From UHGV virus genome UHGV-0368337: a DNA stretch of 11,441 bases; one strand, 5' to 3'. The notes under the pieces are model-generated. The model searched no databases, was not told the DNA's origin, and was given only the letters and a program-made list of their open reading frames with translations. Position numbers and translations under genes: made by a program. The DNA is from a virus. Numbering within the stretch: position 1 is the first letter of the stretch; every line of letters begins with the position of its first letter. Below are positions 8,264 through 10,733 of this stretch, one piece after another.

Positions 8264-8368
8264 ATGTCGGATGATATATCACTGGCAATGGAAGGTGCGC
8301 TGGCTGTTATTGCTGTTGTGGGCGTTTACTGCCTGGTTGTGTTTTTGATGGATCGACTAGGGAACTGA
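8264..8368 (+). CDS. small hydrophobic peptide (34 aa), putative single-pass membrane peptide
   Basis: ATG at 8264 preceded by AAAGGAGGG. MSDDISLAMEGALAVIAVVGVYCLVVFLMDRLGN. Below the ORF-track size cutoff. Confidence 0.4.
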   Translation: MSDDISLAMEGALAVIAVVGVYCLVVFLMDRLGN

Positions 8369-8410: not shown

Positions 8411-8438
8411 TTGCGGTAAAGCGAGAGTTAAGTAGAAT
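8411..8438 (+). promoter_or_regulatory. candidate sigma-70 promoter of the hok-type transcript
   Basis: TTGCGG (8411..8416), 16 nt, TAGAAT (8433..8438). Would give a leader of about 170 nt containing the hairpin CTGTCTGCC...GGCAGACAG (8459..8493), as expected for hok-family mRNAs. Confidence 0.4.
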
Positions 8439-8499
8439 TGCTGCGGGTGCTTGAGGCTGTCTGCCTCGGGCATGCCACCGTAAGGCAGACAGAGAAAAG

Positions 8500-8565
8500 C
8501 CCCAGTTAACATTACGCGTCCTGCAAGACGCCTAACATTAATCTGAGGCCAATTTCATGCTAGAC
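8500..8565 (-). ncRNA. candidate Sok-like antisense RNA (hypothetical)
   Basis: Minus-strand promoter-like TTGCCT (rc of 8595..8600), 17 nt, TAACCT (rc of 8572..8577). The transcript would be antisense to the SD and start of the upstream in-frame ORF at 8557 and contain hairpin 8515..8530. No clean U-tract terminator. Confidence 0.25.
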
Positions 8566-8613
8566 ACATGTAGGTTAGCCTCTTACGCGCCGAAAGGCAA
8601 GGAGAAGCAGGCT

Positions 8614-8769
8614 ATGAAGCAGCAAAAGGCGATGTTAGTCGCCCTGATCGTCATCTGTATTACCGTCATTGTGACGGCACTGGTAACGAGGAAAGACCTC
8701 TGCGAGGTACGAATCCGAACCGGCCAGACGGAGGTCACTGTCTTCACAGCTTACGAACCTGAGGAGTAA
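8614..8769 (+). CDS. hok: Hok/Gef-family type I toxin (51 aa membrane peptide)
   Basis: MKQQKAMLVALIVICITVIVTALVTRKDLCEVRIRTGQTEVTVFTAYEPEE shows the Hok/Gef signature (TM helix, TRK-LCE-R-G-EVA-F-AYE). AAGGCAAGGAGAAG RBS. ORF track 8557..8769 includes an in-frame upstream start with its own GAGG. Confidence 0.85.
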   Translation: MKQQKAMLVALIVICITVIVTALVTRKDLCEVRIRTGQTEVTVFTAYEPEE

Positions 8770-8837
8770 GAGACCAGGCGAGGGAGAAATCCCTCGCCAC
8801 CTCTGATGTGTCAGGCATCCTCAACGCACCCGCACTT

Positions 8838-8859
8838 AACCCGCTTCGGCGGGTTTTTT
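8838..8859 (+). terminator. rho-independent terminator of the hok transcript
   Basis: AACCCGC-TTCG-GCGGGTT followed by TTTT, preceded by the strong 3-prime hairpin GGCGAGGGA-GAAA-TCCCTCGCC (8777..8798). Confidence 0.75.
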
Positions 8860-8978
8860 CACGTACTGTGGTTGTGAATACGATCGGTATTAGGCTATGC
8901 TAACAACATTAGCCTGACTAATTTTGTATTGACTTGATTTTTGTTAAAGAACAGGACGGAGAAGTAAGGGTACACCCA

Positions 8979-9245
8979 ATGAGCTACGCACTAAAAAAAC
9001 ACCCGCGATTGACTATTCCCCCTCGCGATAAAAGCGTTGTGGCAGCTCCGCGCCCGGCTATCGATGAAAATTGCACTCATCGTGAGCAGGTGAAAAATGC
9101 TTTCGATTTCGGTTTTCTCGTTACGAGAAGGCAATGGAAGAACTTTCAAAAGTGTAATGATGGGTATTGTGCTCTATGGCTGAGATTGTTGAAGGAGTGC
9201 ACTACCTTTCGTTTGATGATCTTACCGAAATTAATCGCCTTTTAA
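8979..9245 (+). CDS. hypothetical protein (88 aa) upstream of and overlapping the doc-like gene; possible non-canonical antitoxin or spurious ORF
   Basis: ORF track 8934..9245; candidate start ATG at 8979 with a purine-rich GGAGAAGTAAGGG upstream. Overlaps the Doc-like ORF by 70 nt in another frame. No Phd/YefM-like or other recognisable signature. Confidence 0.3.
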   Translation: MSYALKKHPRLTIPPRDKSVVAAPRPAIDENCTHREQVKNAFDFGFLVTRRQWKNFQKCNDGYCALWLRLLKECTTFRLMILPKLIAF

Positions 9246-9661
9246 TTGAGCTTCAAACACCAGATGAACCTGTTAGTGTGCTGAGTGTTGATAATTTAAG
9301 TTCTTCTCAGTCTCGTCCCAGCATGGTTCGATGGTATGAACAGACTAATGACATGTTTGTACTGGCATCAGTATTGATTGAAAGTCTGATTCAGAATCAT
9401 CCATTTGCTAATGCAAACAAACGAACAGCTATGATGGCTGGTTATGTCTTCTTGTTGTTGAATGGCTATGAGTTAACAGCACCAGGCGATGAAATCGTGG
9501 AAATGGCAGAGGGACTGGCCTGCAAAACCTATACTCGAGAAGATCTCGAGAACTGGTTGTGTTATTGGTCTCGTGCGTATGACGGCCGGGAATTATGTAA
9601 AACAGGCGCAACTGTTGTTTTGTATGAAACTATCAAGCTTAAAATAGAACAGCAAAACTAA
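9176..9661 (+). CDS. doc: Doc-family (Fic-fold) toxin
   Basis: ORF track 9167..9661 (TTG); first ATG at 9176. Contains HPFANANKRTAMMAGYVFLLLNGY, matching the Doc signature HxFx(D/N)(A/G)NKR rather than the canonical Fic motif. Size is that of stand-alone Doc proteins. Confidence 0.8.
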   Translation: MAEIVEGVHYLSFDDLTEINRLLIELQTPDEPVSVLSVDNLSSSQSRPSMVRWYEQTNDMFVLASVLIESLIQNHPFANANKRTAMMAGYVFLLLNGYELTAPGDEIVEMAEGLACKTYTREDLENWLCYWSRAYDGRELCKTGATVVLYETIKLKIEQQN

Positions 9662-9675
9662 AGGTGCTTCTAATG

Positions 9676-9697
9676 AAAACCCGCTTCGGCGGGTTTT
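9676..9697. terminator. bidirectional rho-independent terminator between doc-like and higA-like genes
   Basis: AAAA-CCCGC-TTCG-GCGGG-TTTT, A-tract on one side and T-tract on the other, between convergent genes. The stem is identical to the hok terminator at 8838..8859. Confidence 0.7.
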
Positions 9698-9711
9698 GTT
9701 GTATTGGAGTA

Positions 9712-10029
9712 TCATGATATTACCTGGATTCCGTTTTTCTCTACGACTGAAAGAAGGCGAAGAGCGGCACCTCCCGGCCGTTTTACACCACGTTCCCAGT
9801 CTGATATCAGGTTTTTACTGACGTTGAGGTATCTGGCAAAAACAGGTTGAGACAGATGCTCTCGTTCGCGCAGTGCACGGATCCTTTCCGGAGACATTAC
9901 CGGCGCTGGCTGGAGACAAGTTTCATCGAATTCTCGCATAGTCTGTTTCGTTACTGCGCCGATATCATGAAGCGATTCCATCATTTCATGTACGGATGCA
10001 AGCGCATCACTGCGGTAATTTTTACTCAT
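9712..10029 (-). CDS. HigA-like HTH (XRE-family) antitoxin
   Basis: 105 aa; GGAGG 7 nt upstream of the ATG at 10029. C-terminal HTH LSQPVFARYLNVSKNLISDWERG. Directly downstream of the RelE/HigB-like toxin reading frame on the same strand, i.e. toxin-first order. Confidence 0.75.
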   Translation of the reverse strand: MSKNYRSDALASVHEMMESLHDIGAVTKQTMREFDETCLQPAPVMSPERIRALREREHLSQPVFARYLNVSKNLISDWERGVKRPGGAALRLLSVVEKNGIQVIS

Positions 10030-10083
10030 TGGGTACCTCCGTAAACTGACCCTGTAGAATCAGTTGTGCCAGTTGTTCATCTG

Positions 10084-10391
10084 TTAGATTGAGTACGTGA
10101 GGAGCCCCTTCCGAAATGCACTTTCCTCAGTAGCGGTTATATTTTCACGTTCATTTTTTGCGTATGCATATACGAAAAAGGCCCTTGTGCCGACGCGATA
10201 GAAAATGATTGTGCGATAACCGCCAGATTTGCCGCCACCGACTCGTGGCAGACGTTGCTTGATAACGCCGTTACCCAGGTTTGCTGAGATAAGCCCGTTA
10301 TCAGCCTGTTTAACAATTTCGCGCAGTGATTGGTCGGATATTTTGTTTTGCGTGCAAGTCGCTCAAACCAGGCGTTTTTAAAAATGCGCAT
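10084..10391 (-). pseudogene. RelE/HigB-like type II toxin gene interrupted by a -1 frameshift
   Basis: N-terminus MRIFKNAWFERLARKTK from the ATG at 10391. The rest, including the hallmark GGGKSGGYRTIIFYR, is in the -1 frame (...ISDQSLREIVKQADNGLISANLGNGVIKQRLPRVGGGKSGGYRTIIFYRVG...TYSI, stop 10086..10084). Adding one base to the homopolymer at 10341..10344 restores a 102-aa ORF. Confidence 0.6.
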
Positions 10392-10458: not shown

Positions 10459-10488
10459 TTGACAACGTCGCGTGTTCGGGGCTATATT
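10459..10488 (+). promoter_or_regulatory. near-consensus sigma-70 promoter (TTGACA, 18 nt, TATATT)
   Basis: TTGACA at 10459..10464 and TATATT at 10483..10488. Divergent from the higB-like start; faces the structured region and the ORF6N-like gene. Confidence 0.5.
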
Positions 10489-10494
10489 CCTCAC

Positions 10495-10569
10495 GCGCCA
10501 GCAAAACCTGGCGTCGGGATTAGCACCCCGGATATCGAAACGGTGCATAACCGCGCTGGCGGTTTTTTT
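10495..10569 (+). ncRNA. candidate small RNA or transcriptional attenuator (about 75 nt)
   Basis: Starts about 7 nt after the promoter -10. Hairpins CGCCAG-CAAAAC-CTGGCG and GCACC...GGTGC, then terminator-like CCGC-GCTG-GCGG plus T7 (10551..10569). About 165 nt of further structured sequence precedes the next gene. Confidence 0.3.
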
Positions 10570-10733
10570 ATGCGCTAAGCACAGTCACATTCGCGATTTA
10601 TGGCGGGCTGTGTGGGGGAGCCGAAAGGCTCGCCGGATGTTTCGACCGGTAGTGCTAACCCCGCACAGTTCGCCACCACGATGATTAGCACCTGACGGTG
10701 GCGAGGTAAAAATTATCGAAACGCGAGGTCATT

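What the first reader, a model, noticed from the sequence alone, without database searches (positions are those of the whole stretch)
8411..8860. Hok-family locus with an in-frame upstream start and a candidate Sok-like antisense RNA
The Hok ORF sits in a long leader with large hairpins and a clean terminator, as in hok/sok-type loci. The upstream reading frame that would play the mok role is here in frame with hok (ATG 8557, own GAGG), predicting an N-terminally extended 70-aa product unless translation is blocked. On the opposite strand a TTGCCT-17-TAACCT promoter-like element would give an antisense RNA covering that start region. The regulatory logic may differ from the canonical overlapping-frame mok.
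Basis: partly seen in the sequence, partly recalled or inferred. Interest (0 to 1): 0.5.

Follow-up and report, generated by a model that had tools for sequence, protein, structure and literature searches.

The report
Intact prophage hok/mok/sok toxin-antitoxin locus
This is an ordinary, intact copy of the well-known hok/mok/sok RNA-controlled killer-gene cassette carried by an E. coli lambdoid prophage, and its "in-frame" upstream start is the usual, already annotated arrangement for this branch of the family (mokW/hokW of phage 933W, mokC/hokC of E. coli K-12).

Summary
There is a 51-aa Hok ORF (8614-8769), and an in-frame ATG at 8557 with its own GAGG that gives a 70-aa product. On the minus strand TTGCCT-17-TAACCT (8600->8572) would start an antisense RNA near 8565. 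A terminator ends at 8859.

The locus is a complete hok/mok/sok type I toxin-antitoxin module in a lambdoid prophage of E. coli. It is 91% identical to hokW/mokW/sokW of Shiga-toxin phage 933W/Sp5. The 933W GenBank record annotates exactly this layout: mokW 213 nt in frame with hokW 156 nt, and a 71-nt sokW. The Sp5 copy of this locus has been shown experimentally to work as a toxin-antitoxin system, and the experiment included mutating this same -10 element.

E. coli K-12 mokC/hokC has the same 57-nt in-frame offset. Among 47 distinct leaders I collected, 27 have mok in frame at -57, 9 at -58 (including an R1/F-like plasmid hok), 3 at -56, and 8 are disrupted. The 19 extra codons show no codon-position bias, so they are constrained as RNA and promoter sequence, not as protein.

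Predicted folds reproduce the R1 switch (tac/fbi, ucb/mok-SD, then tac/ucb and mok-SD/dcb), and covariation supports them. The suggestion of a different regulatory logic is not supported. Already known; low interest.

The parts
8411..8438 (+). hok mRNA promoter, TTGCGG (8411-8416) - 16 nt - TAGAAT (8433-8438); predicted start about 8445
   Evidence: Single exact occurrence in the window. The -10 and everything downstream are conserved in relatives. Position 1 of the Rfam model aligns to 8445. The start site is inferred, not measured.
8445..8859 (+). full-length hok (mok-hok) mRNA, about 415 nt
   Evidence: Rfam RF01794 covers 8445-8619 at 116.9 bits. Fold -177.5 kcal/mol, z = -7.3. On a 37-sequence alignment 86% of cells are paired against about 41% when partners are slid, and 41 pairs have changes on both sides.
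8445..8456 (+). tac (translational activator) element at the 5' end, GGGUGCUUGAGG
   Evidence: Pairs with 8819-8831 in the full-length fold and with 8497-8503 in the 3'-shortened fold. Alignment column 4 covaries with its fbi partner (UA 24, CG 11).
8497..8503 (+). ucb (upstream complementary box, anti-SD of mok)
   Evidence: In the full-length fold 8499-8503 pair with the mok SD region 8545-8549. In the shortened fold 8497-8503 pair with tac 8445-8452. The tac/ucb helix is 99.6% paired across 37 relatives.
8495..8565 (-). Sok-like antisense RNA (antitoxin), about 71 nt. A single-stranded 5' tail is complementary to the mok start region, followed by a long terminator hairpin and GGGGCUUUU.
   Evidence: Maps base for base onto the annotated sokW of phage 933W. 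Fold -32.9 kcal/mol, z = -6.3. sokW RNA was seen on Northern blots and acts as antitoxin in the 91%-identical locus (PMC8621323). The ends in this allele are inferred by homology.
8572..8600 (-). Sok promoter, TTGCCT (8600-8595) - 17 nt - TAACCT (8577-8572), lying inside mok codons 6-15
   Evidence: Exact pattern occurs once. Conserved in relatives. The homologous -10 was mutated in the sokW 'pro-less' construct, which lost antitoxin activity.
8545..8548 (+). mok Shine-Dalgarno, GAGG
   Evidence: Invariant in close relatives (entropy 0 over 8544-8549). Paired with ucb in the full-length fold and with dcb in the shortened fold.
8545..8582 (+). Sok-target hairpin of the activated (3'-shortened) mRNA. 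The mok SD pairs with dcb (8578-8582), and the loop is CUAGACA, 8560-8566.
   Evidence: Found in the fold of 8445-8815. The same hairpin is in the Rfam consensus structure. Covariation is only weak here because the interior aligns poorly.
8557..8769 (+). mok reading frame, 70 aa, in frame with hok and sharing its stop. The product is therefore Hok with a 19-residue N-terminal extension.
   Evidence: ORF list. Same layout as mokW and mokC. The exact 70-aa sequence is on record on 191 public contigs. No codon-position bias in the 19 leader codons.
8600..8604 (+). hok Shine-Dalgarno, AGGAG, 9 nt before the hok ATG
   Evidence: Sequence. Nearly invariant across relatives.
8614..8769 (+). hok toxin gene, 51 aa, annotated HokD in RefSeq
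   Evidence: PF01848 E=1.2e-22. PHROG 251 E=1.5e-31. RefSeq annotation hokD in a 100%-identical chromosome. Strong third-codon-position variation, typical of a coding sequence under selection.
8819..8831 (+). fbi (fold-back inhibitory) element, CCUCAACGCACCC
   Evidence: Pairs with tac in the full-length fold. The helix is 91% paired in 37 relatives, with 3 pairs changed on both sides.
8838..8859 (+). intrinsic terminator of hok mRNA: stem 8838-8844/8849-8855, loop UUCG, T-run to 8859
   Evidence: Sequence and fold. Shared with phage Rac, mEp460 and other relatives. Missed by the simple scanner.

Best explanation
The region is a complete hok/mok/sok type I toxin-antitoxin cassette of the hokD/hokW lineage. 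It sits among other toxin-antitoxin modules in the early region of a lambdoid prophage of E. coli.

Proposed mechanism, inferred by homology with R1 hok/sok and Sp5 hokW/sokW:
1. A weak promoter (8411-8438) makes a stable mRNA of about 415 nt (8445-8859). This mRNA is translationally silent. Its 5' end (tac) pairs with its 3' end (fbi), and the mok ribosome-binding site (GAGG, 8545-8548) is held by the upstream box ucb.
2. Slow 3' trimming removes fbi. tac then captures ucb, and the mok SD moves into a hairpin with dcb. That hairpin is both translatable and the binding target of Sok.
3. While the prophage is present and quiescent, the unstable Sok RNA of about 71 nt (8565->8495, transcribed from TTGCCT-17-TAACCT inside mok) binds the mok start region. 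This blocks mok translation and triggers RNase III cleavage.
4. When Sok disappears, ribosomes start at the mok ATG 8557 and read through the hok initiation region. That opens it and allows initiation at ATG 8614, so the 51-aa membrane toxin Hok is made.

Because mok is in frame here, every mok-initiated ribosome also makes a 70-aa N-terminally extended Hok. The extension is a by-product of where the start codon sits. What is required is translation through the region, not the peptide, exactly as for the out-of-frame mok of R1.
For: Shown here:
- Hok domain and the Rfam hok-leader model at 116.9 bits.
- All elements are present and intact.
- The MFE of the full-length RNA pairs 8445-8456 with 8819-8831 and 8499-8503 with the mok SD. 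The MFE of the 3'-shortened RNA pairs tac with ucb and the mok SD with 8578-8582.
- Covariation on 37 relatives from Escherichia, Kluyvera, Photorhabdus, Pantoea and Citrobacter: 86% paired against about 41% for slid partners, and tac/fbi UA<->CG in 11 sequences.
- Sok folds as a 5' tail plus terminator hairpin, z = -6.3.
- The mok ATG lies 56-58 nt upstream of hok in 39 of 47 distinct leaders: 27 in frame, 9 in the +1 frame, and 3 ending on the hok ATGA.
- Entropy per codon position in the 19 leader codons is 13.1/13.4/12.7. In the hok core it is 7.0/6.2/20.5.

From annotation and papers:
- 933W annotates mokW, hokW and sokW with identical geometry. K-12 annotates mokC, hokC and sokC likewise.
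- hokW-sokW (91% identical) is a working toxin-antitoxin pair. sokW is seen on Northern blots, mutating its promoter unleashes toxicity, and there is partial RNase III and Hfq dependence. HokW is produced on prophage induction (PMC8621323).
- In R1, mok translation up to the hok start, not the Mok product, is what is required (PMC9841398).
- mokC/sokC gives RNase III-dependent dsRNA in vivo (PMC7373196).
Against: - Nothing was measured for this allele. Transcript ends, the 3' processing site (I cut arbitrarily at 8815), Sok expression and toxicity are all inferred.
- Both promoters match the sigma-70 consensus poorly, and the generic scan missed them.
- Covariation for the target hairpin itself is weak, at 71% paired, because the interior is hypervariable and poorly aligned.
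- The requirement for mok translation has been shown for R1 only. The hokW study treated the mok region as 5' UTR and did not test mokW.
- In Sp5 the biological role found was help with lysis at induction, not post-segregational killing. The role here is therefore uncertain.
Confidence: 0.9

Rival explanations
1. The in-frame arrangement has a function of its own. The 70-aa Mok/Hok fusion is a second, functional toxin isoform, or a modulator of Hok. Sok would then directly control a toxin start codon rather than only a leader peptide, and the regulatory logic would differ from R1.
For: - In-frame mok necessarily yields a protein containing all of Hok.
- In frame is the commonest state, 27 of 39 leaders with a recognisable mok, and it occurs in several lineages: hokC, hokD/W, Photorhabdus, and an IncHI-type plasmid.
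- The extension is hydrophilic and basic (MLDTCRLASYAPKGKEKQA), so it should not prevent membrane insertion (inference).
- The C-terminally tagged HokW construct used in PMC8621323 would tag both forms, so published data do not exclude a long isoform.
Against: - The 19 extra codons show no codon-position bias.
- They include the most variable stretch of the whole transcript (8550-8566).
- Close relatives at 92% identity have mok out of frame through a single-base insertion (Rac and P1-like), or have mok ending at the hok ATGA. A long isoform is therefore dispensable.
- The excess of in-frame cases is confounded by shared ancestry; the 15 Photorhabdus leaders form one group.
- In R1 the Mok product is not needed (PMC9841398).
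Confidence: 0.07
2. The locus is a decayed, non-functional hok remnant, like the five hok loci of E. coli K-12. The upstream ATG and the promoter-like hexamers would then be relics.
For: - Many chromosomal hok loci are inactivated. K-12 hokD lacks the whole leader, with no mok ATG and no tac. K-12 hokC has IS186 20 nt after the stop, and its 3' end diverges.
- 8 of 47 leaders surveyed are disrupted.
- The hexamers are weak matches to consensus.
Against: - Every element is intact here: promoter, tac, ucb, Sok promoter and terminator, mok SD and ATG, hok SD and ORF, fbi and terminator.
- The Rfam score is about twice the gathering threshold.
- The region is 91% identical to the experimentally active hokW-sokW over 96% of its length, including an identical Sok -10.
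Confidence: 0.03

Closest known systems
hokW / mokW / sokW of Shiga-toxin phage 933W and Sakai prophage Sp5 (GenBank AF125520; Takada et al. 2021, PMC8621323)
   Same: - 91% nucleotide identity over 8411-8841.
- mok is 213 nt in frame with hok at 156 nt, with a shared stop. The antisense RNA is 71 nt and starts 9 nt inside mok.
- Identical Sok -10 (TAACCT) and -35 (TTGCCT).
- Prophage location.
   Different: - 5 substitutions in Hok (86% identity).
- Several substitutions in the Sok 5' tail and target loop (GAGGCCAATTTCATGCTAGAC here, GAGGCTCAATCCATGCTGAAC in 933W), which may make the two Sok RNAs non-interchangeable.
- The window has its own intrinsic terminator, whereas 933W diverges after fbi.
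- Different position in the prophage: here it lies after the replication and DUF551 genes, and in 933W it is near the right end.
hokC (gef) / mokC / sokC of E. coli K-12 (b4412, b0018, b4413)
   Same: - mokC is an in-frame extension of hokC with the same 57-nt offset and the same stop. sokC starts 9 nt inside mokC.
- Hok is 84% identical.
- Same tac sequence.
   Different: - K-12 hokC has IS186 20 nt downstream of the stop, and its 3' region no longer aligns with fbi or the terminator.
- The Sok terminator hairpin is 18 nt shorter.
- The Sok -35 is TTGACC rather than TTGCCT.
- Chromosomal, not in a prophage.
hok / mok / sok of plasmid R1 (parB), the paradigm of the family
   Same: - Same set of elements (tac, ucb, mok SD, dcb, hok SD, fbi) and the same two-state RNA switch as described in PMC9841398, reproduced by the folds here.
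- mok has 19 codons before the hok start and 70 codons in all.
- Sok is antisense to the mok start region.
   Different: - In R1 the mok ATG (116-118) is 58 nt upstream of the hok ATG (174-176), so it is in the +1 frame and Mok is an unrelated peptide. An R1/F-like plasmid locus read here shows the same. In the window the offset is 57 nt and Mok is an extended Hok.
- For the close homologue HokW, identity to R1 Hok is reported as 44% (PMC8621323).
- Plasmid stabilisation versus prophage context.
hokD (relF) of the Qin cryptic prophage, E. coli K-12
   Same: Hok protein 94% identical. RefSeq names the window's gene hokD. Prophage-borne.
   Different: K-12 hokD has lost the leader. There is no mok ATG at -56 to -58 and no tac motif upstream, and relE sits 72 nt upstream instead. 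The window carries the complete regulatory region.

Membership tests
[quoted passage not shown] | Small Hok/Gef-family membrane toxin ORF of about 50 aa | tested here: met
   ORF 8614-8769, 51 aa. PF01848 E=1.2e-22, 79.7 bits against a cutoff of 22. PHROG 251.
[quoted passage not shown] | Conserved structured hok mRNA leader (Rfam RF01794 covariance model) | tested here: met
   116.9 bits against a gathering score of 59, full model 1-157, over 8445-8619 on the + strand.
[quoted passage not shown] | mok reading frame with its own SD, starting upstream of hok and reading across the hok initiation region | tested here: met
   ATG 8557 with GAGG 8545-8548, reading through 8614 to 8769. The homologous ATG is at -56 to -58 in 39 of 47 distinct relatives. 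The frame relative to hok is not a defining feature, because it varies within the family.
[quoted passage not shown] | cis-encoded antisense Sok RNA, with its promoter inside mok, its 5' end overlapping the mok start and its own terminator hairpin | tested here: met
   At the sequence level only. TTGCCT-17-TAACCT at 8600->8572. Predicted RNA 8565->8495 with a hairpin and U-tail, z = -6.3. Coordinates coincide with the annotated sokW and with the experimentally mutated -10. Transcription in this strain cannot be tested here.
[quoted passage not shown] | 5'-3' end pairing (tac/fbi) that locks the full-length mRNA, with the mok SD sequestered by ucb | tested here: met
   The MFE pairs 8445-8456 with 8819-8831 and 8499-8503 with 8545-8549. 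The tac/fbi helix is 91% paired in 37 sequences, with compensatory UA/CG changes.
[quoted passage not shown] | Alternative fold after 3' trimming: a tac/ucb helix and a mok-SD/dcb target hairpin | tested here: met
   Fold of 8445-8815. tac/ucb is 99.6% paired but invariant, so it is uninformative for covariation. The target hairpin is 71% paired. The true 3' processing site is unknown.
[quoted passage not shown] | Hok kills the cell, and Sok neutralises it post-transcriptionally | not testable with these tools
   Shown for the 91%-identical hokW-sokW (PMC8621323). Not shown for this allele.
   The offset is 57 nt, a multiple of 3, with a shared stop. R1 has 58 nt, and an R1/F-like plasmid locus has a DUF5431 ORF at -58. 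The window belongs with the in-frame mokC/mokW type, not the R1 type.

The most novel reading that the evidence does not exclude
In in-frame loci such as this one, the 70-aa product started at 8557 could be a genuine second toxin isoform: Hok with a basic 19-residue cytoplasmic extension. It might differ from the 51-aa form in insertion, potency or timing. Sok would then control a toxin start codon directly, and the recurrent in-frame state (27 of 39 leaders) would reflect selection rather than chance.
Probability: 0.07. Interest if true: 0.4.

Novelty: already known. Interest (0 to 1): 0.12.

Why it matters
It matters little as a discovery. It is a further allele of a textbook system, and the same architecture is already annotated in 933W and K-12 and has been tested in Sp5.

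Two practical points follow:
- RefSeq annotates only hokD here. mok and sok are missing, and the Rfam family called 'sok' actually marks the hok-mRNA strand. Automated annotation therefore understates the locus and can mislead about strand.
- The survey shows that the mok frame drifts between 0, +1 and +2 among close relatives, while the start position and RNA structure stay fixed. This is comparative support for the long-standing conclusion that mok translation matters and the Mok peptide does not. A recent survey of Hok diversity left mok unanalysed (bioRxiv 10.1101/2025.08.07.668861).

Tried and rejected
- The generic promoter and terminator scan found neither promoter nor the terminator. 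The hexamers are weak consensus matches, so I relied on homology and on exact-pattern counts.
I used the single protein instead, which biases the survey toward hokC/hokD-like toxins. R1-, hokA-, hokB- and hokE-like loci are under-sampled.
- Covariation for the Sok-target hairpin was inconclusive, because MAFFT misaligns its hypervariable interior.
- A YUNR U-turn motif at the start of the target loop is present here (CUAG). It occurs in only 25 of 34 distinct leaders, so it is not a usable test.
- Literature: searches for 'orf69' plus gef and for in-frame mok statements returned nothing relevant. Steif & Meyer 2012, 'The hok mRNA family', is not held. Pedersen & Gerdes 1999 and Plunkett et al. 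1999 could not be read, so I cite the GenBank and RefSeq annotations instead. My recollection that Poulsen et al. 1991 described the gef upstream frame as orf69 is unverified.
- The degenerate-remnant reading is rejected because every element is intact.
- A different-logic reading is rejected on the frame survey and the codon-position test.

Full report
**Observation**

- A 51-aa ORF (8614-8769) matches Pfam HOK_GEF at E=1.2e-22.
- An ATG at 8557 lies 57 nt upstream, in the same frame, and is preceded by GAGG (8545-8548). It gives a 70-aa ORF that shares the hok stop.
- No other frame offers an ATG or GTG start (TTG not examined) that reads across the hok start.
- On the minus strand TTGCCT-17-TAACCT occupies 8600->8572 and occurs once in the window.
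- The right edge is an intrinsic terminator: stem 8838-8844/8849-8855, then a T-run to 8859.
- Rfam RF01794 matches 8445-8619 at 116.9 bits, against a gathering score of 59.
- The simple sigma-70 and terminator scanner found none of these sites. The hexamers are weak consensus matches, and their support comes from homology.

**Context**

The 450 bases are 100% identical to an E. coli chromosome and are found in 4721 of 5426 complete E. coli genomes, with a median of 2 places per genome that has any.

In the identical genome the locus lies in a lambdoid prophage. It follows the cI/cro/cII, replication, DUF1627, DUF977 and DUF551 genes. It precedes a Doc-like toxin gene, an HTH/RelE-ParE pair, antirepressor-type genes and the nin region. 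RefSeq annotates only 'hokD' there, with no mok and no sok.

**Identity with described loci**

Phage 933W is 91% identical over 8411-8841. Its GenBank record annotates mokW (213 nt), hokW (156 nt, same stop) and a 71-nt antisense sokW that starts 9 nt inside mokW. Transferred to the window these are mok 8557-8769, hok 8614-8769 and sok 8565->8495.

E. coli K-12 annotates mokC (16751-16960) and hokC (16751-16903) with the same stop and the same 57-nt offset. sokC starts 9 nt inside mokC. By contrast, K-12 mokB is out of frame with hokB.

The exact 70-aa sequence of the window is on record on 191 public contigs.

Takada et al. 2021 (PMC8621323) studied hokW-sokW of Sakai prophage Sp5. HokW is toxic, and sokW expressed from its own promoter neutralises it. 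sokW and hokW RNAs are seen on Northern blots. Antitoxin action depends partly on RNase III and Hfq. On prophage induction sokW disappears and HokW is made, which helps phage release. Their promoter-less sokW mutant replaces TAGGTTA on the hok strand (primers YO-421/422).

**Is in-frame mok unusual?**

I fetched 57 related loci from a one-genome-per-species collection. I added phage, plasmid and K-12 loci and compared 47 distinct leaders.

| Position of an ATG preceded by GAGG, relative to the hok ATG | Distinct leaders | Examples |
|---|---|---|
| -57 (in frame) | 27 | Escherichia hokD/W and hokC types, Photorhabdus, Pantoea, Citrobacter, an IncHI-type Salmonella plasmid |
| -58 (+1 frame) | 9 | K-12 hokB, an R1/F-like Klebsiella plasmid, phage Rac, a P1-like plasmid, Kluyvera |
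| -56 (mok stops on the TGA of the hok ATGA) | 3 | L025, L026, L027 |
| none recognisable (disrupted leaders) | 8 | K-12 hokD type |

In R1 itself the mok ATG is at 116-118 and the hok ATG at 174-176. That is 58 nt, with 19 mok codons before hok, as here (PMC9841398).

In the Rac/P1-like relatives, which are 92% identical, the frame change comes from one inserted T. The insertion falls inside the Sok -35 and turns TTGCCT into TTGACC.

Among the 27 in-frame leaders, variability is spread evenly over codon positions (entropy sums 13.1/13.4/12.7). The hok core shows the coding signature (7.0/6.2/20.5).

So the start position is conserved, while the frame and the peptide are not. The 19 codons are constrained as Sok promoter, hok SD and RNA structure. 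This agrees with the experimental conclusion for R1 that mok translation up to the hok start is needed, not the Mok product.

**RNA switch**

- Full-length RNA (8445-8860): folds at -177.5 kcal/mol, z = -7.3. tac 8445-8456 pairs with fbi 8819-8831, ucb 8499-8503 pairs with the mok SD, and the mok AUG pairs with 8816-8818.
- 3'-shortened RNA (8445-8815; the cut point is my assumption): tac pairs with ucb 8497-8503. The mok SD pairs with dcb 8578-8582, forming a hairpin with loop CUAGACA. The Rfam consensus contains the same hairpin.
- These two states are the ones described for R1.
- Covariation: on 37 relatives the full-length structure has 86% of cells paired, against about 41% with slid partners. 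It has 41 pairs with changes on both sides, against about 21. The tac/fbi helix shows UA in 24 sequences and CG in 11 at one pair. tac/ucb is invariant. The target hairpin gave only weak counts because its interior is hypervariable.
- The Sok strand folds as a single-stranded 5' tail plus a long hairpin and U-tail (-32.9 kcal/mol, z = -6.3).

**Mechanism, and what is inferred**

Shown here are the presence, integrity, conservation and covariation of all elements, and the coincidence with annotated and tested features of homologues.

Inferred by homology:
- the transcript ends and the 3' trimming;
- Sok binding to the mok start region, with RNase III cleavage (in-vivo dsRNA at mokC/sokC: PMC7373196);
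- mok-coupled initiation at hok;
- killing by Hok.

With mok in frame, ribosomes that start at 8557 must make a 70-aa extended Hok. Whether that form accumulates or is toxic is unknown. The tagged HokW construct of PMC8621323 would label both forms, and the text mentions only HokW.

**Verdict**

The proposal that the in-frame start implies a different logic is not supported. This is the mokC/mokW arrangement, already annotated and the commonest in this clade. The locus is an intact member of a known system, not a remnant. Novelty: already known. Interest is low. The residual open point is the fate of the long isoform.

**Seen in passing**

- Rfam 'sok' matches the hok-mRNA strand.
- C4-like, isrK and a1b1 RNA elements lie at 10482-10680, upstream of an antirepressor-type gene.
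- A one-base difference in a T-run near 9113 frameshifts the small ORF upstream of doc, relative to the otherwise identical genome.
- The stretch 8550-8566 (Sok 5' tail and target loop) is the most variable transcribed segment among close relatives. Because Sok is cis-encoded, a change there alters both partners at once, so this may keep the several hok/sok copies in one genome from cross-reacting.
- Very short contigs labelled Acinetobacter and Xanthomonas, and an 'Actinobacillus' phage, carry E. coli-type hok.

Noticed in passing
window 8445-8619 (+): The Rfam family RF01794 is named 'sok antitoxin', but it matches the hok-mRNA strand and spans the whole leader from the mRNA 5' end to the hok ATG. 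The real antisense RNA is the complement of roughly 8495-8565. Strand calls based on this family name would be wrong.
   Followed up: partly
window 10482-10680 (+): Three Rfam hits lie in a row: c4-a1b1 (10482-10534), isrK (10495-10569) and C4 antisense RNA (10596-10680). They sit just upstream of an ORF6N/BRO antirepressor-type gene, which suggests a P1/P7-style immI antirepressor control module in this lambdoid prophage.
   Followed up: no
window about 9113 (within ORF 8979-9245), compared with L001 about 9703: The window has TTTT where the otherwise identical E. coli AST198 sequence has TTTTT. This frameshifts the small ORF (PHROG 2208, 59 aa in AST198) immediately upstream of the Doc-like toxin gene (9167-9661). 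It could be a sequencing error in a homopolymer or a real inactivation of a putative Phd-like antitoxin.
   Followed up: partly
window 8550-8566: Among 12 close hokD/W-type relatives this stretch (Sok 5' tail, target loop, mok codons 1-4) is the most variable part of the conserved transcript, with mean column entropy 0.68 against 0.20 overall. The flanking mok SD, Sok terminator hairpin and hok SD are almost invariant. This may diversify Sok specificity among the several hok/sok copies in one genome.
   Followed up: partly
window 8596-8597; L006 (phage Rac), L010 (P1-like plasmid): In 92%-identical relatives a single inserted T turns the Sok -35 from TTGCCT into TTGACC, a better consensus match. 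The same insertion shifts mok from in frame (-57) to the +1 frame (-58). Three other loci (L025-L027) have mok at -56, ending on the TGA that overlaps the hok ATG.
   Followed up: yes
window 8264-8368 (+): A 34-aa ORF with a hydrophobic core (MSDDISLAMEGALAVIAVVGVYCLVVFLMDRLGN) is annotated as a hypothetical protein in RefSeq, directly upstream of the hok promoter. It has no Pfam or PHROG match. It is a possible small membrane protein of unknown role.
   Followed up: partly
window 8411-10300: Three toxin-antitoxin-like modules lie side by side: hok/mok/sok, a small ORF plus a Doc-like toxin gene, and an HTH protein plus a RelE/ParE-family toxin on the opposite strand. Together they form a small toxin-antitoxin cluster between the replication genes and the antirepressor and nin region of the prophage.
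   Followed up: no
L028 (275 nt), L037 (431 nt); hit H21 PP818812.1: Very short contigs in assemblies labelled Acinetobacter idrijaensis and Xanthomonas pisi carry E. coli-type hok (Hok protein 93-95% identical), and a phage record labelled Actinobacillus phage vB_Apl-pPE4 matches the locus at 93.8% nucleotide identity. These are probably contamination or mislabelled hosts rather than real occurrences outside Enterobacterales.
   Followed up: no
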